A stretch of 11,432 nt of DNA, taken from Candidatus Sigynarchaeum calidifontis. Lineage in GTDB: Archaea > Asgardarchaeota > Lokiarchaeia > Sigyniarchaeales > Sigyniarchaeaceae. The stretch lies in contig JAUQYZ020000064.1 in the NCBI GenBank assembly GCA_030587475.2, forward strand, positions 1 through 11,432. The letters are read 5' to 3'. A model generated the notes under the pieces. That model did no database searches and was not told where the DNA came from. It was given only the letters and a program-made list of their open reading frames with translations. A program made the position numbers and the translations under genes. This document shows positions 106-8,732 of this stretch, in pieces; position 1 is the first letter of the stretch, and every line of letters begins with the position of its first letter.

Positions 106-1881
106 TTGCAGCCGGACCAAGTAACGTGCCATTTCTGCGGGGAAACGAACCCTTTACCGGCCATGACGATGAAAAAGGACGCGGGAATGCCAGGTGATCA
201 GAACCGTGCCATGTCTAGCATAGTCCCGGAAAAGCCGCTTCAGGAGACTCCCGCAATCACGAGCACGGTCACGTCTGGCCAGGAACGCGACCCGATATGC
301 CCCCGGTGCGGCAAGGATAATTCGAATATAAAGAATGCCCGTTTTTGTTTTGGCTGTGGAACTACCCTCCTCACCCGGCAAGGTCTCATGGGAATCACTT
401 CCGCAGTCGCGCGCGCAGTGGATGCCATTCAATTGCGCGATCCGATTTGTCCACGATGCGGCAAGGATAACTCCAAAATAAAAAATGCTCGTTTTTGTTT
501 TGGTTGCGGGACAATACTCTCCACGAAGCAAACTGCTACTGATGTTGTCCCGAGGCCGAGACCGGTACCGCGGCCATGCCCGCACTGCGGGAGAGATCTG
601 GCGATGCAGCCAATTGGCAAGTTCTGTATCTATTGTGGAAAGCCCGTGTCCTCGGAACCGCCGATGGGCGCACCCGTGCCGGGAGCAAGTAGGAACGGGA
701 AAACAGCAGCAGCACAGCCGCAACAAGTACCATTGCACGCGGAGCTATCGCCAAGCACGGTGCCAGATACACGAACCGTACCACCACATGCCCAAGAAAA
801 TTCCACCATTGCGACACTAGCAGCGATCACGCAGGCAAAACCCTTGAGCACGACATTAGCCAAGACTGAACAGCTAGAGTCGAAGATCATGGGACCGGCC
901 AAGCCCGCGACGCCAGAACCGGTGGTTTCGAAACCCGTCTCTCCAGGTAAACCAGCCGTGGAGCCGGTCGATATGCTGAACATCACGTGCCGGTACGAGG
1001 CGCCCGTGCTATCTGCGATGTTCTCGAAGGACGGGAAGGAATTCTTCGTCGGCACCGCGAGGAACCAGATCATCGCCCGCGAGACGACCAATGCCAGGGC
1101 AAAAAGGACCATCCCCGGCGAGGGGACAGGCAAGGCGGTCACGGTACTCTCGGAGCGCGATGGCAAGGGCTTCGCAACGTGCATGAGCGGCCCGGTCATG
1201 CGCTTCACGCGGGTCGCCCTCCTGGATCCCAAGGGGAGCATCACGAGCCAGGTCAAGACATCCCAGGCGGCGATCTTGTCCGTGGCGGTGAATCCGGCGG
1301 GCTCGCAGCTGGTACTCGGGGGATATGACAAGAAGGCCGAGATCTACGACGTGAAGTCGGGTAAGCTAGCCTTCACGCTGGCGGGCCACGATGGTGCCAT
1401 CGACGCGGTCGCGTTCGATCCCACGGGCAAGCTCGCCGCGACCGGCGGCCGCGATGGTGCCGTGAAGGTGTGGAAGGCCGAGACCGGGGAATTGCTCCGG
1501 AGCTTTGCCGGCCACGAGAAGCCGGTACTTTCCCTGGCCTTTTCGCAAGACTGCACGCGACTTGCTAGTGGGTCGGGTGACGGCAGCATCAAGATCTGGG
1601 ATCCCGAGAAAGATTCAGCCCTGAGCACGTTGATCGGGCACCGGGGCGGCGTGCTGAGCATCGCCTTTGATAACGATGGCAAGCGTCTCGTGAGCGGGGG
1701 GGATGACACGGTCGCCCGCGTCTGGGACGTCGAATCGGCCAAGGTGCTCCGGGCGGTCGACGTGCACGCGGGGGCGATCACCGCCATTGCGATCTCCCCG
1801 GACGGCAAGCGGGTCATCACGGGCGGCGCGGACAAGCGTAGTTACCATTGGCTTCTTGATGCATGGAAAACAATGGAATAA
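106..1881 (+). CDS. Zinc-ribbon repeat + low-complexity linker + WD40 beta-propeller protein (true start probably upstream of 85; see findings)
   Basis: N-terminus has CxxC-x(n)-CxxC ribbons: CPRC..CFGC twice, CPHC..CIYC, and CHFC whose partner CREC lies in frame at 85-96. A Pro/Ala/Thr/Gln-rich linker follows. Then about 7 WD40 repeats of roughly 42 aa, e.g. GHDGAIDAVAFDPTGKLAATGGRDGAVKVWK, GHEKPVLSLAFSQDCTRLASGSGDGSIKIWD, GHRGGVLSIAFDNDGKRLVSGGDDTVARVWD; the first two are degenerate. Stop TAA 1879-1881. Confidence 0.9.
   Translation: MQPDQVTCHFCGETNPLPAMTMKKDAGMPGDQNRAMSSIVPEKPLQETPAITSTVTSGQERDPICPRCGKDNSNIKNARFCFGCGTTLLTRQGLMGITSAVARAVDAIQLRDPICPRCGKDNSKIKNARFCFGCGTILSTKQTATDVVPRPRPVPRPCPHCGRDLAMQPIGKFCIYCGKPVSSEPPMGAPVPGASRNGKTAAAQPQQVPLHAELSPSTVPDTRTVPPHAQENSTIATLAAITQAKPLSTTLAKTEQLESKIMGPAKPATPEPVVSKPVSPGKPAVEPVDMLNITCRYEAPVLSAMFSKDGKEFFVGTARNQIIARETTNARAKRTIPGEGTGKAVTVLSERDGKGFATCMSGPVMRFTRVALLDPKGSITSQVKTSQAAILSVAVNPAGSQLVLGGYDKKAEIYDVKSGKLAFTLAGHDGAIDAVAFDPTGKLAATGGRDGAVKVWKAETGELLRSFAGHEKPVLSLAFSQDCTRLASGSGDGSIKIWDPEKDSALSTLIGHRGGVLSIAFDNDGKRLVSGGDDTVARVWDVESAKVLRAVDVHAGAITAIAISPDGKRVITGGADKRSYHWLLDAWKTME
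286..513 (+). repeat. Intragenic duplication of a 78-nt zinc-ribbon module (286-363 and 436-513; period 150 nt)
   Basis: RDPICPRCGKDNSNIKNARFCFGCGT vs RDPICPRCGKDNSKIKNARFCFGCGT: 25/26 aa identical, 14 nucleotide differences, all at third codon positions. Confidence 0.95.
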
Positions 1882-1894
1882 AAGAGAAATGCAC

Positions 1895-3646
1895 CTATTT
1901 TTTCACCAACTTCGCGGGCCGCTTGTTAAATGCCGCAAAGATCGCGTCGACGAACTCGCCGCGCGGTGCTTTTGTCCGCAAGCTCACGAGGACGAAGACG
2001 ATGATGGCGACGGCTTGCGACACGAGAAACTCGTGAATGCCAGCCTTGGACATGGCGGACGTGTTATCCCCGGCGATCTTGTAAAAGTCCCCGAGCGTGA
2101 TCTTGAACGGGCTGGTGAGCAGGGTCACGGCGCGCAGGTCATGGAACACTAATTCCACGGCAGGATTGCTGAACCGGAAGATAAACCACCAGATGATCGC
2201 GGTAGCAAGACTGACGATGCCAGAAATCCATGCTGCCTTGGCAGTCCCGCGTTTCCAAAAGAGACCAAAAACATACGGCACGAGCACGGCGGAGGCAATG
2301 GCTGACCACGCGAACATGCACAAGGTGAGCACGAAATCGATTTTACCGATGGCGAAAAGCAAAGCAGCGATGATGACGATGATCGTCGCGTATTTCGTAA
2401 CCTTGAGCATCTTCTCATCCGAAATCTTGGGCCGCGAACCACGCTCGAGCAAGTTTTGGTACACGTCTTGCGAAAAACCAGAGGCGGAAATCAACACGAC
2501 CTTCTCCTCCGTAGTCATGGATGCCGAAGTCACCGCCGCGATAAAGATTGCAACGATGGGCGCAGGCATAACACTCCGGAGGAATAGCGGGATGTTCATG
2601 TCCATGTCCTTGATGATCCGGAGTATGTTATCGTTGATTCCTGGTTGTCCAAGATGTAAAAACCAGTACGAGTTGGCGACTGCCCCGTTGAAATACGAGA
2701 AGAAAGCTACGATAGCAGCCCAGCTGCACGCGACAATGAGACCATACTTGATCGCATTTTTCGACTTGGCCGTGAAGAACCGGCTCAAAGCTTGTGGCAT
2801 TCCCCATTGTCCGAAAGAAGTGACGAGGATGAACCCGATCAAGCCCATGCCCCCGAATCCGACGAATTCCGTGAGGGAGTTCGGGGTGAACGGCGCGTTG
2901 CGATCGGGCAAAATCCCAGAACCATCGATGAAGGGTCCCGTTTCGGCGATGCGCAACCCGGCGATGAGTCCATCGATACCACCAACGCTCACGATACCAA
3001 TGATCGTGACCAGCAAGATCCCGGCGAGCATGATGATGCTCTCGAACGCGTCCGAGATTATCGCGCCGATCGATCCACCAAAGACGAGATAAAAGATCGT
3101 GATGCCGCCGCAGAGGGCGATGCCTATCAAGTATGCAATGTCTGCTTCCGCTTGGGTCCCGTGGGGGGTGAGAAGGGTAAGGAGCTTCGCAAGCCCCGTG
3201 TAAACGCTCACGAGATAGATCATCTCGAAGAACATGATGACGAGGCCGAGAAAGACTTGATAATTCTTGTCCTGGTATCGGAAAGCAAGCAATTGAGGAA
3301 TCGTGACCGCTTTGCACTGGTCAGACATTATCTTCGTGCGCCGCCCAAAAAGCATGAAAACAAGAAAGATACCGACCAGGACATTAATCGATGCGACCCA
3401 GATTGCCCCCAGGCCCCACATGAATGCCTGGCCACCACCACCAATGACGAGGACGCTACTGAAGTATGTCACCCCGAACGACATGCCGAGAAGTACAGGG
3501 CCAATTGATTTACCCGCGATAAGATAATCTTCCACGGATTTCGTGCGTTTCTTGCTGTAAATACCAAACGCCACAAGAACACCCAGATATGCCACGAGAA
3601 CGATCCAAAAAATGGGGATCTCCACGTCCGTAACCTGGCTCATCAT
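1895..3646 (-). CDS. Sodium:solute symporter (SSS/SLC5 family, PutP/PanF-like), substrate unknown
   Basis: About 13-14 hydrophobic segments; family motifs EDYLIAGKSIGP, TIPQLLAFRY, YLVFGG..GAIISDAFE, GMPQALSRFF, SASMTT, GLFWKRGTAKAA. Start moved from 3766 to ATG-ATG at 3646/3643 (MMSQVTD) because the 40-aa extension is hydrophilic, overlaps a better small ORF in another frame, and GGAGGA lies about 10 nt upstream of 3646. Confidence 0.92.
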   Translation of the reverse strand: MMSQVTDVEIPIFWIVLVAYLGVLVAFGIYSKKRTKSVEDYLIAGKSIGPVLLGMSFGVTYFSSVLVIGGGGQAFMWGLGAIWVASINVLVGIFLVFMLFGRRTKIMSDQCKAVTIPQLLAFRYQDKNYQVFLGLVIMFFEMIYLVSVYTGLAKLLTLLTPHGTQAEADIAYLIGIALCGGITIFYLVFGGSIGAIISDAFESIIMLAGILLVTIIGIVSVGGIDGLIAGLRIAETGPFIDGSGILPDRNAPFTPNSLTEFVGFGGMGLIGFILVTSFGQWGMPQALSRFFTAKSKNAIKYGLIVACSWAAIVAFFSYFNGAVANSYWFLHLGQPGINDNILRIIKDMDMNIPLFLRSVMPAPIVAIFIAAVTSASMTTEEKVVLISASGFSQDVYQNLLERGSRPKISDEKMLKVTKYATIIVIIAALLFAIGKIDFVLTLCMFAWSAIASAVLVPYVFGLFWKRGTAKAAWISGIVSLATAIIWWFIFRFSNPAVELVFHDLRAVTLLTSPFKITLGDFYKIAGDNTSAMSKAGIHEFLVSQAVAIIVFVLVSLRTKAPRGEFVDAIFAAFNKRPAKLVKK

Positions 3647-3753
3647 TTTAACCCGTCCTCCGTTTCTTTGATGCTCATCAAGTTGTATATTATCGCTGCG
3701 ACGACCGATCCGATGAGGATCGCGATTCCAAACCAGATGGTCCAATGAAACAT
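3643..3753 (-). CDS. Small single-pass membrane protein, probable symporter accessory subunit (36 aa; not in ORF track)
   Basis: Hand translation: MFHWTIWFGIAILIGSVVAAIIYNLMSIKETEDGLK*. One hydrophobic helix plus a charged tail; its TGA overlaps the symporter start (AAA-TGA-TG, i.e. ATGATG). Small membrane genes just upstream of SSS genes are an established arrangement (e.g. yjcH-actP, yhdT-panF). Confidence 0.8.
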   Translation of the reverse strand: MFHWTIWFGIAILIGSVVAAIIYNLMSIKETEDGLK

Positions 3754-3966
3754 GGTTTTCACGCACTTGTTAGCCGTTTTTTAGCTCGATATGACCGGTT
3801 TCCGACCCATTCTTTGCCCATTTTTCGCGGTTTTATATCGCACGTGTCGGAATCCGATGTAACGATGTCATTTTTTCGTCGCCGGAACTTCTTAAGCATT
3901 TATACTCGGTGTTGCGAATATACATGTTACCATTCAAGGACTCGCTCGACGTGGTTGAATCGGCCC
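3754..3966. promoter_or_regulatory. Divergent promoter region between the symporter operon and the GTPase-like/GH4 operon
   Basis: AT-richer stretch between head-to-head genes, with TATA-like elements TTTTATAT (3831-3838; ATATAAAA on minus) and TTTATA (3899-3904). Exact promoters cannot be determined. Confidence 0.5.
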
Positions 3967-4515
3967 ATGGCGGCAGGCAAGGACAAGATCAAGATTATCG
4001 TTTTCGGGGCTCGGCATACGGGACAAGGGCCATTAGGGAGGGCATGGGGAAAGACAGATGCCGACTTGCCCGATTTGCAGCCAGTCGTCATATACGAGCG
4101 CGAGATCGATCACGAGAGGGGGAAAAAGACCGTTGCGGCATGGATTCTCTCCGTGGATCCACAATTCGACTACATGAGAAGGTCAATGTATGAGAAGGCT
4201 GACGGGTTCATTTACACCTTCGACGTGACGGACATCACGGGGAAATCGCTCCATTACCTCGACCCGTTCGTCGATGAGGTCCGAGCCATGTATCATCCCG
4301 CCCCGCCCGAGGTTCTCGTGGGATCGCATCCCGATCCGACCATCACGACCAAGCCAGAGAAGACACGGGCGTTCGTGAACTCGTGGCTCGCTGCCCATGG
4401 CAACATTCCTTTTCTCGAGCTCGACCTCACCGATAAAAAGAAGTTTTTCGATGGAGCGGAGGCCGTTTTCAGCACCTTGCTCGGTATCATCCTGGGCAAG
4501 CACGGCGAGGCTTGA
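3967..4515 (+). CDS. Rab/Ras-like small GTPase-fold protein with degenerate G1-G5 motifs (putative pseudo-GTPase), 182 aa
   Basis: Colinear with the Rab consensus over its whole length: KIIVFGARHTGQG (KxvvxGxxxxGKS/T), AAWILSVDPQFDYMRRSMYEKADGFIYTFDVT (iWDTAGQERFrslrssYYrgAdGailvYDvT), VLVGSHPD (LVGNKxD), IPFLELDL (lpffETSAK), GAEAVFSTL (nVeeaFxxl). Start set at ATG 3967; the ORF track's extension from 3745 crosses the intergenic region. Confidence 0.8.
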   Translation: MAAGKDKIKIIVFGARHTGQGPLGRAWGKTDADLPDLQPVVIYEREIDHERGKKTVAAWILSVDPQFDYMRRSMYEKADGFIYTFDVTDITGKSLHYLDPFVDEVRAMYHPAPPEVLVGSHPDPTITTKPEKTRAFVNSWLAAHGNIPFLELDLTDKKKFFDGAEAVFSTLLGIILGKHGEA

Positions 4516-4518
4516 TAA

Positions 4519-5901
4519 ATGAAAGTTGCTTTCATCGGCGCGGGCAGCAGGATCTTTTGCAAGAATCTACTCACGGACATCCTTGCTTTTCCTAAACTAC
4601 GCGAAAACATAACCATTGCCTTGCATGATATCAACAAGCCGCGCCTCGAGAAAATGGCCGAGGAGATGGAGCGCTACAAGGCGGATCATGCTGACAAGCT
4701 GTCGAGCGTGCGGTTCGATGCCACGACCGACTTGCGCGCTGCAATCACGGGCGCGAAATACGTGATCGACGCGGTGATGGTCGGTGGTCCGGATGCGTTG
4801 AAACTCGACATCGACATCCCGATGAAGTACGGCGTCGATCAATGCATCGGCGACACGACCAGCGCGGGAGCCGTGTTCCGTGCCTTGCGTACATTCCCTG
4901 TACTCAAGGACATCATCACGTGCATGAAGGAAGTCGGTTACAACGCGGGAAACAAGAACTGTGCGAGGCCGATCTTGCTCAACTATGCAAATCCCATGGC
5001 CATGAACACGTGGTGGTGCAACGTGCTCTGGCCGGGGAGTACCGTTGGCTTGTGCCACGGCGTGCAAGGCACGTTCAAGCAGCTGCACGCGACTTACATC
5101 GGCGCGAGCTCGGACGAGTGTTCGTTCCTCTGCGCCGGAATCAACCACATGGCATGGTTTACAGAGCTCTGGTTTAAGGACCGAACACTGCCGGATGCCA
5201 AGTGGCGGGACGCGTACCCTATCATATGGGAGCATTACCAGGACGAGCCCGCGATCGTCAACGAAGAGAAGGTGCGATGGGACATGATGAAAGCCACGGG
5301 TTATTACATGACCGAGTCGAGCGGCCACCTGTCCGAGTACGTTCCATACTACCGGAAGCGAAAGGACCTCATCGAGAAATACAAGGGAAACACGAATGGC
5401 TTCAACAACCTCGCGCACGGCTGGGACCTGCAGTTCTTCGGAGCCAACACGGATTCGGTCGAGAAAACGCTCAAGCTCAAGCCGAGGTCAATGCCGTTCA
5501 AGCACACGCCATCCGAGGAATACGCGGGCCACATCATCAACGCCATGGAGACCAACGCACCGTTCCGCTTCAACGGGAACGTCATGAATGAGAAGGGCGC
5601 GTTGATCACGAACCTGCCCGCGGGATGCTGCGTGGAGGTGCCCATCTTTGCTGATTACCACGGGTTACACCCGCAAGGGGCCATCGAGCTGCCGACGGCG
5701 TGCGCCGCACTCTGTACATCGAACATCATGGTGCACAAGGCAACGATCGAAGGCGCGCTTGCCAAAGACAAGGAAAAAATCTACCAGGCCGTGCTGCTCG
5801 ACCCGCTCACGGCTGCAGCGTGCTCGCCCGAGGAGATACGCCAGCTCGTTGATGAAATGTTCCGGGTGGAAAAACAATGGTTGGGATGGATGGATTCATA
5901 G
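4519..5901 (+). CDS. melA: Glycoside hydrolase family 4, alpha-galactosidase (MelA-like), NAD+/Mn2+-dependent
   Basis: Rossmann start KVAFIGAGS; GDT..GAVFRALRT; LLNYANPM; metal ligands in GLCHG and GINHMAW; MelA-type TESSGHLSEYVPYYRK; C-terminal CVEVP and LLDPLTAA. Family is secure; exact substrate is not. Confidence 0.88.
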   Translation: MKVAFIGAGSRIFCKNLLTDILAFPKLRENITIALHDINKPRLEKMAEEMERYKADHADKLSSVRFDATTDLRAAITGAKYVIDAVMVGGPDALKLDIDIPMKYGVDQCIGDTTSAGAVFRALRTFPVLKDIITCMKEVGYNAGNKNCARPILLNYANPMAMNTWWCNVLWPGSTVGLCHGVQGTFKQLHATYIGASSDECSFLCAGINHMAWFTELWFKDRTLPDAKWRDAYPIIWEHYQDEPAIVNEEKVRWDMMKATGYYMTESSGHLSEYVPYYRKRKDLIEKYKGNTNGFNNLAHGWDLQFFGANTDSVEKTLKLKPRSMPFKHTPSEEYAGHIINAMETNAPFRFNGNVMNEKGALITNLPAGCCVEVPIFADYHGLHPQGAIELPTACAALCTSNIMVHKATIEGALAKDKEKIYQAVLLDPLTAAACSPEEIRQLVDEMFRVEKQWLGWMDS

Positions 5902-7637: not shown

Positions 7638-8732
7638 TCACTCGTCATCGTCATCTATGCCCTCGTGACCGCCGAGCCATGACGGTAGGAAAAATTCCGC
7701 CCAAATCTTGCCCGGAAAGTGCGTGCTCAAGTATAACCCCCTTGGATCGAGATTGTGGTAAACTTTCATGATGTCCTCCGGCGCGGCGTCCATGACGATG
7801 TTTTTTCCGGCGGCTTGGATCTTCTTGTAGACGGGAAGCCACGTTTCATGGGCCATCGGGGGCTTGCCGGCGCCGGGAACCCATTGAATGCCGGTTAGCT
7901 CGGGAATGGCCAGTAAATCATCGAGATAGGGCAGCTGGTTTACGCCGTCGAGATGGTAGATGGCATAGTCGAGGTGCCTGCATTGAGCGACAATATCGGG
8001 GAGAACAAAACGTTTAAACCATTTGGGCGAGAGCATGTACGAAAAGTCGCATTGTAACGGGTACCATCGCTTCCGGTTCCACAAGCCCATCCACGCGCTC
8101 GTGCAATGGCAGTGTTCGAGGGTGATCGCCACGAGCTTGTCGAACAACTTGAACGATTTCTCGAGAATGATGGTCCTGCACGTATCAATGATCTCTGGCT
8201 TGTTCCGCATCGCATAGAAGATGTCCTTCGGGGCAAGGAAAGAAGCGAGGATGTCGAGTATACCGCCGTAGTCAGTGGTCGCAACCGCATATTGATCCTT
8301 CGCGTGCTTAGCCGCGTATTCCGTGATGCGCACGAGGCGAGCGTACCATGGATTGTTCATGTTGAACTCGGCGCCTTCGAGCAAGGGCACGATGTCATCG
8401 AGCGATGTCGGCTTGAAAAACCAGACCGTGTCGGACTTGAAGACGGAATCCGCCCCGAACACGCACGCGAAGACACCTGCACCATAATTTGGATTGAACA
8501 CGGGAAAACGCTCGCCGCCAAATTCAATACTGACATGGCTCTTTTCAAAATTATCGATGGCACCTTCGATATCATCGGGATGTTTTGCCAGGTACCAGTG
8601 ATCATAAAATTCACGTGGCACCATATCCGGTTTCGGGCACGTGTAAGCAAGGATCGGGCGATCGGTCGACTCGTGGTTCCACCACGCGTCCATCCGCTGC
8701 TTCGCGGCATTCACATCTTCCTTGTATATCAT
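7638..8732 (-). CDS. Uroporphyrinogen decarboxylase/MtaA-like (URO-D/CIMS) TIM-barrel protein of unknown function
   Basis: N-terminal R..AWW..E.TDRP; QCDFSYMLSPKWFKRFVLP (the family's D....SP..F..F..P pattern); YHLDG; IQWVPGAG; acidic DDDDE tail. Confidence 0.75.
   Translation of the reverse strand: MIYKEDVNAAKQRMDAWWNHESTDRPILAYTCPKPDMVPREFYDHWYLAKHPDDIEGAIDNFEKSHVSIEFGGERFPVFNPNYGAGVFACVFGADSVFKSDTVWFFKPTSLDDIVPLLEGAEFNMNNPWYARLVRITEYAAKHAKDQYAVATTDYGGILDILASFLAPKDIFYAMRNKPEIIDTCRTIILEKSFKLFDKLVAITLEHCHCTSAWMGLWNRKRWYPLQCDFSYMLSPKWFKRFVLPDIVAQCRHLDYAIYHLDGVNQLPYLDDLLAIPELTGIQWVPGAGKPPMAHETWLPVYKKIQAAGKNIVMDAAPEDIMKVYHNLDPRGLYLSTHFPGKIWAEFFLPSWLGGHEGIDDDDE

What the first reader, a model, noticed from the sequence alone, without database searches (positions are those of the whole stretch)
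3967..4515. Rab-like small GTPase with all five G-boxes degenerate: candidate prokaryotic pseudo-GTPase
Seen: a clean 182-aa ORF that follows the Rab/Ras structural pattern end to end, yet nearly every nucleotide-handling residue is replaced. G1 GxxxxGK[S/T] reads GARHTGQG (no Lys, no Mg-binding Ser/Thr). Switch I appears shortened with no Thr at the G2 position. G3 WDTAGQE reads WILSVDP. G4 NKxD reads SHPD (only the Asp remains). G5 SAK reads DLT. Structural motifs (Y..ADGFIYTFDVT, VLVG, IPFLE, EAVF) are kept, and there is no C-terminal Cys for prenylation. Established: these residues are needed for GTP binding and hydrolysis, and eukaryotic pseudo-GTPases such as CENP-M and the p190RhoGAP pG domains act as scaffolds. 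Inference: losing catalytic residues while keeping the fold and frame points to a maintained non-enzymatic adaptor, or a sensor of some other ligand, rather than random decay. I do not know of a described family matching it.
Basis: partly seen in the sequence, partly recalled or inferred. Interest (0 to 1): 0.85.

Follow-up and report, generated by a model that had tools for sequence, protein, structure and literature searches.

The report
Paired dead GTPases of Loki archaea
This gene of a Lokiarchaeia-type Asgard archaeon encodes a Rab-shaped protein whose GTP-handling residues were replaced long ago and have been kept unchanged since, and a structure model suggests it uses its former switch surface to pair with a sister copy, so it probably works as a fixed dimer and no longer as an on/off switch.

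Summary
3967-4515 (+) encodes a 182-aa Ras/Rab-fold protein (AF2 pLDDT 88; Z about 19.5 to Rabs) with all five G-boxes altered. The host is a Lokiarchaeia-type Asgard archaeon. This is not decay: GxRHTGQGP is present in 27 of 27 complete orthologues down to 42-50% identity, and dN/dS is about 0.1. The genome also has a paralogue (type B, GxR[YH][TS]GKG, 74 sequences). Types A and B form one long-stemmed clade found in 8 of 400 Asgard genomes, all in one order. All three Mg2+ ligands are lost in both types. The altered P-loop, switch I, beta-2 and switch II are the most conserved parts. A complex model pairs A with B through a symmetric beta-2/switch interface (0.78 against best control 0.01), which fits homo- or heterodimers equally well. 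Best reading: a switch-dead dimer; binding of another ligand is not excluded. I found no paper on the family. This scan noted a type B member and other, unrelated Asgard pseudo-GTPases on other DNA. No biochemistry exists.

The parts
3967..4515 (+). Gene for a 182-aa stand-alone Ras/Rab-fold pseudo-GTPase (type A of a Lokiarchaeia family)
4006..4032 (+). Rewritten P-loop GARHTGQGP (residues 14-22): no Lys, no Ser/Thr; Arg16, Thr18, Gly19, Gly21 shared with type B
   Evidence: 27 of 27 complete type A sequences; only synonymous codon changes in nine loci
4054..4098 (+). Switch I and beta-2 (residues 30-44, motif ADLPxLQPVxxYE): Leu37 at the G2 Thr position; core of the predicted two-fold dimer interface
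4141..4161 (+). G3 region WILSVDP (59-65): Asp>Ile/Val, Gly>bulky residue, Gln>Asp; Trp59, Ser62, Asp64 nearly invariant in both types
4171..4194 (+). Switch II helix (69-76), second half of the predicted dimer interface
4324..4341 (+). G4 region SHPDPT (120-125): Asp-Pro-Thr invariant in type A (31 of 31), variable in type B
4417..4431 (+). G5 region ELDLT (151-155): Asp153 in 30 of 31 type A; bulky residue in place of the Ala of SAK

Best explanation
The protein is a selected pseudo-GTPase derived from the Asgard Ras-like (RasL) expansion. It no longer cycles as a Mg-GTP switch: the P-loop Ser/Thr, the switch I Thr and the G3 Asp (the three Mg2+ ligands) and the G3 Gly are replaced in the whole family, and type A has also lost the P-loop Lys (shown in sequence; loss of binding is inferred from established G-motif chemistry). 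The old effector face (switch I, beta-2, switch II) became a fixed self-association surface: two G-domains pair through antiparallel beta-2 strands about a two-fold axis near Val40 (predicted). Genomes with only type B would make B:B; genomes with both types may make A:B, A:A and B:B (inferred). The dimer would act as a nucleotide-independent scaffold, with the invariant Arg/His/Thr of the P-loop and Arg25, Asp33, Ser62, Asp64 holding the switches in one shape (inferred). What the dimer binds is unknown.
For: Motif replacement is family-wide: Gly21 in 27/27 type A and 74/74 type B; Leu37 in 29/30 and 74/74; Ile/Val60 in all. Purifying selection: dN/dS 0.106 (window against L001), 0.101 (L020 against L016), 0.18 (type B pair). 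One origin: A+B clade SH-aLRT 100 on a stem of 1.7-1.8 changes per column. Conservation peaks at P-loop, switch I and G3 (0.89-0.94) against 0.37-0.60 for helices 3-5. Complex model of A with B: score 0.78, best of 3 controls 0.01; this mark was reached by 58 of 80 solved complexes and 2 of 110 mismatched pairs (counts hold only roughly, own alignments were used); the runs agree in at least 81% of contacts; partner pLDDT at least 85. The contacts are symmetric (38 with the partner's 42-equivalent, 40 with 40, 73 with 73). The 20 interface positions are more conserved than the rest (0.90 against 0.67 in A, 0.83 against 0.57 in B; 0 of 10000 random sets as high) and 13 of 20 have the same consensus in both types. 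All 5 genomes with type A also hold type B.
Against: No binding, oligomer or structure measurement exists. The complex score may reflect memory of effector-face contacts in solved small-GTPase structures: a Rab9-GDP dimer is in the PDB (1S8F) and beta-2/beta-2 K-Ras dimers have been modelled (bioRxiv 2020.09.07.285783). The controls were unrelated proteins, not ordinary GTPases, and close cousins of a true partner pass this test, so homo- and heterodimer cannot be told apart. Switch regions tend to be conserved in any GTPase orthologue set, which weakens the conservation test. The P-loop lies outside the predicted interface yet is nearly invariant, unlike CENP-M and p190 pG1, where it is eroded or blocked; a pure scaffold does not obviously need that. 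The A and B genes are not neighbours in any locus seen.
Confidence: 0.5

Rival explanations
1. A sensor with a re-specified pocket: it binds a phosphate-bearing or guanine-bearing ligand without Mg2+ and without hydrolysis. The two types may split the job, since type B keeps the P-loop Lys but has a variable G4, while type A has lost the Lys but keeps the G4 Asp. This is compatible with dimer formation.
For: P-loop conservation 0.93-0.94 with invariant Arg16 and an aromatic residue at 17; Lys in 74/74 type B; Asp123-Pro-Thr in 31/31 and Asp153 in 30/31 type A; some type A members read TKLD, a G4 form also used by ordinary GTPases of this genome. Nucleotide-binding pseudo-GTPases exist (class ii and iii in PMC5593906). 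From my own knowledge, adenylate kinases use a GKG P-loop.
Against: Type A lacks Lys, Ser/Thr and, through Pro22, a backbone NH that binds the alpha-phosphate in Ras (own knowledge). Ala32 is invariant and no aromatic residue lies in 28-36 to stack on guanine; the G5 Ala is replaced by Leu/Met. No metabolic gene stays attached to type A across loci.
Confidence: 0.25
2. A monomeric adaptor or decoy: the locked switch face binds a third protein (an effector, a roadblock/longin regulator or an ordinary RasL GTPase), as CENP-M does in the kinetochore, and the predicted self-pairing is a by-product.
For: The conserved face is the one that small GTPases use for effectors; the genome has about 65 intact small-GTPase domains whose partners could be shared; class i pseudo-GTPases act as scaffolds.
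Against: The model gives a confident, self-complementary two-fold interface covering that same face. No fused form was found and no neighbouring gene follows the family; the cupin beside type B is also present in many genomes that lack the family.
Confidence: 0.19
3. An atypical but active GTPase or NTPase in which catalytic residues have moved (Arg16 or Lys20 for phosphate, Thr36 of type B or Asp36/Asp64 for the metal), perhaps completed in the dimer.
For: Type B keeps Lys20 and mostly Thr at 36 (59/74), one residue before the G2 position; Asp64 and Ser62 are invariant. RGK proteins hydrolyse GTP with divergent motifs.
Against: Position 36 varies (T/A/S in B, D/A/S in A), so it is no fixed ligand; the window protein has no Lys, Ser/Thr, G2 Thr, G3 Asp or G3 Gly.
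Confidence: 0.05
4. A decaying duplicate from the large Asgard GTPase expansion.
For: Redundancy is high (69 domains) and the family is absent from most Lokiarchaeia.
Against: Identical altered motifs in all orthologues, dN/dS about 0.1, no stops, only synonymous change in the seven RHTGQGP codons across nine loci.
Confidence: 0.01

Closest known systems
Asgard Ras-like (RasL, 'Rab-like') small GTPases, e.g. Thor-Rab (PDB 7EZB; PMC10933270; classification in bioRxiv 2024.02.28.582541)
   Same: Fold, size, no prenylation Cys, host group; best profile and structure hits are Rab/Ras; the family sits among RasL sequences in the tree, with weak placement.
   Different: All five G motifs are rewritten and switch I is two residues shorter. 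The family is separated from all other Asgard GTPases by a clear gap (at least 216 bits against at most 68). It is not Rup3, which is Heimdallarchaeia-specific and has insertions.
Class i pseudo-GTPases: CENP-M, p190RhoGAP pG1/pG2, fungal dynein LIC (PMC5593906, PMC4080450)
   Same: [quoted passage not shown]
   Different: CENP-M and pG1 have deleted switch I and have an eroded or blocked P-loop; here switch I and the P-loop glycines are kept and are the most conserved parts. This protein is archaeal and stand-alone. No sign of direct descent: none of them was among the top structure hits.
IFT22/RABL5, RGK (Gem) and the AGAP1 GTP-binding-like domain
   Same: Rab-like proteins with partly lost motifs; IFT22 clusters were the top language-model look-alikes (0.95); Gem, AGAP1 GLD and IFT22 align at Z 17.8, 17.8 and 15.4.
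   Different: IFT22 complexes co-purify with GTP (PMC10505919) and a GTP-bound structure exists (6IA7); they rank below true Rabs in structure and profile searches, so the likeness looks convergent.
Effector-face GTPase dimers: modelled K-Ras beta-homodimer (bioRxiv 2020.09.07.285783), Rab9-GDP dimer (PDB 1S8F), RABL3 homodimer (own recollection, paper not held)
   Same: Pairing of two G-domains through beta-2 and the switch regions.
   Different: Those are active nucleotide-binding proteins; here the interface is predicted in a family that has lost the switch chemistry, and it may join two paralogues.

Membership tests
Ras superfamily (fold and ancestry) | Six-stranded G-domain fold and sequence homology to Ras/Rab | tested here: met
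   PF00071 above gathering score, 46 of 58 family members hit it; Foldseek and VIA-align
Canonical Rab/RasL GTPase switch | G1 GxxxxGK[ST] | tested here: not met
   GxRHTGQG in 27/27 type A; GKG in 74/74 type B
Canonical Rab/RasL GTPase switch | G2 Thr in switch I | tested here: not met
   Leu37 at the position by spacing; no Thr at 36-39 in any type A
Canonical Rab/RasL GTPase switch | G3 DxxG | tested here: not met
   [IV]LS[LV] in type A, [VI]xS[FY] in type B
Canonical Rab/RasL GTPase switch | G4 [NT]KxD | tested here: not met
   SHPD in the window protein; Asp kept in 31/31 type A and TKLD in 4 relatives, so only partly lost in the subfamily
Canonical Rab/RasL GTPase switch | G5 SA[KL] | tested here: not met
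   D[LM]T consensus in type A
Eukaryotic Rab family | C-terminal Cys for geranylgeranylation | tested here: not met
   No Cys in the protein; also absent from Thor-Rab
Pseudo-GTPase (definition in PMC5593906) | [quoted passage not shown] | tested here: met
   definition
Pseudo-GTPase (definition in PMC5593906) | Maintained by selection, not a pseudogene | tested here: met
   dN/dS about 0.1; about 105 intact homologues
Class i pseudo-GTPase | No nucleotide binding in vitro | not testable with these tools
   Needs purified protein
Rup3 (Heimdallarchaeia) | Insertions in the G-domain; Heimdallarchaeia range | tested here: not met
   Normal length, found only in one Lokiarchaeia order
IFT22/RABL5 or CENP-M orthologue | Specific kinship above other Rabs | tested here: inconclusive
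   Family profile finds Rab9/12/33/1 first; IFT22 at Z 15.4 below Rabs at 19.5, CENP-M not listed; no tree with eukaryotic sequences was built

The most novel reading that the evidence does not exclude
An archaeal pair of pseudo-GTPases that form an obligate heterodimer through their former switch faces, with ligand recognition split between them (type B keeps the phosphate-binding Lys, type A the guanine-reading Asp), so that the dimer senses a ligand other than Mg-GTP.
Probability: 0.12. Interest if true: 0.85.

Novelty: new variant of a known kind. Interest (0 to 1): 0.64.

Why it matters
The pseudo-GTPases listed in the papers I could read are eukaryotic, apart from a loose analogy to CheY, and searches found no paper on Asgard pseudo-GTPases. 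The largest survey of Asgard GTPases left about 124 sequences unclassified as possible pseudogenes or undefined groups. This family shows that one such kind is an old, selected lineage. It is a small, single-domain, two-member system in which the step from GTP switch to fixed binding module can be tested directly. It is limited to part of one Lokiarchaeia order and shows no link to a eukaryotic protein, so it illustrates parallel evolution and does not trace an ancestor of eukaryotic pseudo-GTPases.

Tried and rejected
Operon or nutrient-sensing module with the symporter, GH4 and WD40 genes: rejected. The symporter lies beside no other type A locus; GH4 is adjacent only here (1 kb away in L018, 7 kb in L016, absent from L001, L020, L025); ilvD is near in five loci but on the other strand, which marks a conserved chromosomal position and not a partner. 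Cupin as dedicated partner of type B: adjacent in five Sigynarchaeaceae-type loci but found in 48 of 154 genomes, most without the family, and absent beside other type B genes. Fused forms: none among 50% representatives or longer proteins (weak evidence). Order of events: type A was nested within type B in one quick tree and unresolved in another, so 'A arose from B' is not shown. L037/P0040 first domain (68 bits, WVYFDD at G3) did not group with the family. NCBIfam gave no hit. Expression: no RNA holder was listed. The sigma-70 scan found nothing and does not suit archaea. CENP-M and p190 pG1 were not among the 50 listed structure matches. The pseudo-GTPase review (PMC7544640), the IFT22 structure paper and the RABL3 paper were not held. 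NCBI labels Bathyarchaeota and Hodarchaeota on two hits: the first genome is placed in the window's own family by the genome search (L002 = L006, G160); the second was not checked.

Full report
Observation. Each motif reads as stated: G1 GARHTGQG (14-21), G3 WILSVDP (59-65), G4 SHPD (120-123), G5 DLT (153-155). Spacing from the last P-loop Gly to the G3 Trp is 40 residues in 87 of 101 family members and most often 42 in this genome's ordinary GTPases, so switch I is two residues short and Leu37 occupies the G2 Thr position. The fold is a Ras/Rab G-domain: Pfam Ras E 7.3e-5, AF2 pLDDT 88.1, Foldseek E about 1e-10 to Rab/Ras only, Z 19.6 at rmsd 2.5 A over 162 residues, and Rabs on top in the wide search.

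Host. Named homologues are Candidatus Lokiarchaeota, Lokiarchaeia and Sigynarchaeum. The genome has 69 small-GTPase domains, as expected of an Asgard archaeon; only four lack GxxxxGK[ST], namely this protein, a paralogue on contig C43 and two unrelated eroded proteins.

Family. The protein has 30 homologues at 42-83% identity, here type A. The paralogue (C43:300-875, minus; 38% identical) heads a second group of 74 sequences, type B. A profile search of 1.84 billion representatives found ten hits under 1e-30, all 148-198 aa, and then a gap to other GTPases. Among 400 Asgard genomes the family was found in 8, all in the window's order: all 4 of its family, the single genome of a second family and 3 of 14 of a third. 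Full-length members score at least 216 bits and the next GTPase 68. It was not found in 135 genomes of the largest family. All five genomes with type A also hold type B (in G160 cut by a contig end, in G008 partly masked); three genomes, 76-91% complete, show only type B. A and B together form one clade with SH-aLRT 100 on a long stem; whether A is nested in B is unresolved (quick trees).

Selection. GxRHTGQGP is present in 27 of 27 complete type A sequences and GxR[YHWF][TS]GKG in the type B set (one has Cys for the first Gly). The seven codons of RHTGQGP all vary synonymously across nine loci and never change the residue. Nei-Gojobori dN/dS is 0.106 for the window against L001, 0.101 for L020 against L016 and 0.18 for the closest type B pair; more distant pairs are near saturation. 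Private decay is excluded.

Anatomy. Both types have Gly for the P-loop Ser/Thr, Leu for the G2 Thr, Ile/Val for the G3 Asp and a bulky residue for the G3 Gly. By established G-motif chemistry (summarised) this removes the Mg2+ site and gamma-phosphate sensing. Type A also has Gln for the Lys and a Pro after the loop; type B keeps the Lys in 74 of 74. The guanine side is the reverse: type A has Asp-Pro-Thr at G4 in 31 of 31 and Asp153 in 30 of 31, while type B is variable there. [quoted passage not shown] The motifs were thus rewritten and then fixed, unlike CENP-M and p190 pG1, which deleted switch I.

Partner. Gene context names none. Type A stays near ilvD in five loci while its immediate neighbours change; the symporter is unique to this window and GH4 is adjacent only here. 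Type B follows a cupin in one family only, and that cupin is widespread without it. No fusion was found. I therefore tested A with B. The model scored 0.78 against a best control of 0.01; this mark was reached by 58 of 80 solved complexes and 2 of 110 mismatched pairs (roughly applicable, as my own alignments were used); runs agree in at least 81% of contacts and the partner's pLDDT is at least 85. The interface is pseudo-symmetric: residues 38-44 of A pair with the equivalent strand of B in antiparallel register about Val40, flanked by switch I (28-37) and switch II (69-76). These positions are more conserved than the rest in both types, and 13 of 20 share the same consensus. Because the interface is symmetric and some genomes appear to have only type B, the result speaks for self-association of the family, not specifically for a heterodimer. 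It is a prediction; it may echo known effector-face contacts (Rab9-GDP dimer 1S8F; modelled K-Ras beta-homodimer), and the controls were not GTPases.

Mechanism. Shown: fold, loss of the switch motifs, selection, single origin, two paralogues. Predicted: a beta-2/switch dimer. Inferred: no Mg-GTP cycle (about 0.9), and a fixed dimer acting as a scaffold (0.5). Rivals: a Mg-independent ligand sensor, suggested by the invariant P-loop outside the interface and the complementary retention of Lys (B) and Asp (A) (0.25); a monomeric adaptor or decoy for a third protein (0.19); an atypical active enzyme (0.05); decay (0.01).

Relation to what is known. It works like a class i pseudo-GTPase and meets the sequence definition; the biochemical criterion is untested. 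It fails every motif test for a canonical Rab/RasL switch and is not Rup3. IFT22 was the top language-model look-alike but ranks below Rabs by structure and binds GTP. Literature searches found no description of this family or of Asgard pseudo-GTPases, though most subscription papers are not held, and members may sit unnamed in the unannotated set of the Asgard survey.

Verdict. A real, undescribed family of stand-alone archaeal pseudo-GTPases with two paralogues and a testable dimer model: a new variant of a known kind, interest 0.64.

Noticed in passing
G000 C43:300-875 (-) = L003:300-875: Type B paralogue (GSRYTGKGQ); AF2 pLDDT 88.8. It follows a 111-aa cupin (889-1224) and a 2-oxoacid:ferredoxin oxidoreductase operon; in L026, L028 and L029 it converges on a TFIIB gene.
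   Followed up: yes
G000 C106:26925-27437 (+) and C5:9234-9761 (+): Two more stand-alone small-GTPase-like ORFs without GxxxxGK[ST] (GSRNAGIS; RSDNKAAIS), each on its own long branch and unrelated to this family.
   Followed up: partly
L037 (G048) and P0040: 572-aa protein with two tandem G-domains and a C-terminal helix-turn-helix-like region; the first G-domain keeps G1 and G4 but lacks the G2 Thr and G3 DxxG (WVYFDD). Related first domains in L041 and L047.
   Followed up: partly
window 106-1881 (+): 591-aa protein with four CxxC pairs (zinc-ribbon-like, two of them a near-identical repeat), a Pro-rich linker and a WD40 propeller; its orthologue lies directly upstream of the pseudo-GTPase in L001 (60% identity), so the symporter looks inserted between them here.
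   Followed up: partly
window 3643-3753 (-): 36-aa hydrophobic ORF just upstream of the sodium:solute symporter (1895-3640, minus); possible small accessory membrane peptide.
   Followed up: no
window 3899-3904: TTTATA about 63 bases upstream of the ATG in an AT-richer stretch; possible archaeal TATA box, not tested against chance.
   Followed up: no
window 4519-5901 (+): GH4 glycosidase (alpha-galactosidase-like, NF011657, just under cut-off) starts 3 bases after the pseudo-GTPase stop, so it is probably co-transcribed here, but the adjacency is not conserved.
   Followed up: yes
window 7638-8732 (-): 364-aa ORF between ilvD and ilvC with no Pfam or NCBIfam hit; by eye it resembles uroporphyrinogen decarboxylase or methyltransferase-like barrels (unverified).
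   Followed up: no
L021:5786-9976: Downstream of type A member P0020: an adaptin mu-like domain protein, an EAP30 (ESCRT-II) gene and a Band 7 gene; seen in one locus only.
   Followed up: no
L016:1-3110 and L020:1-4451: Very large ORFs (about 3087 and 1945 aa) without Pfam hits lie a few kb upstream of type A genes in two genomes.
   Followed up: no
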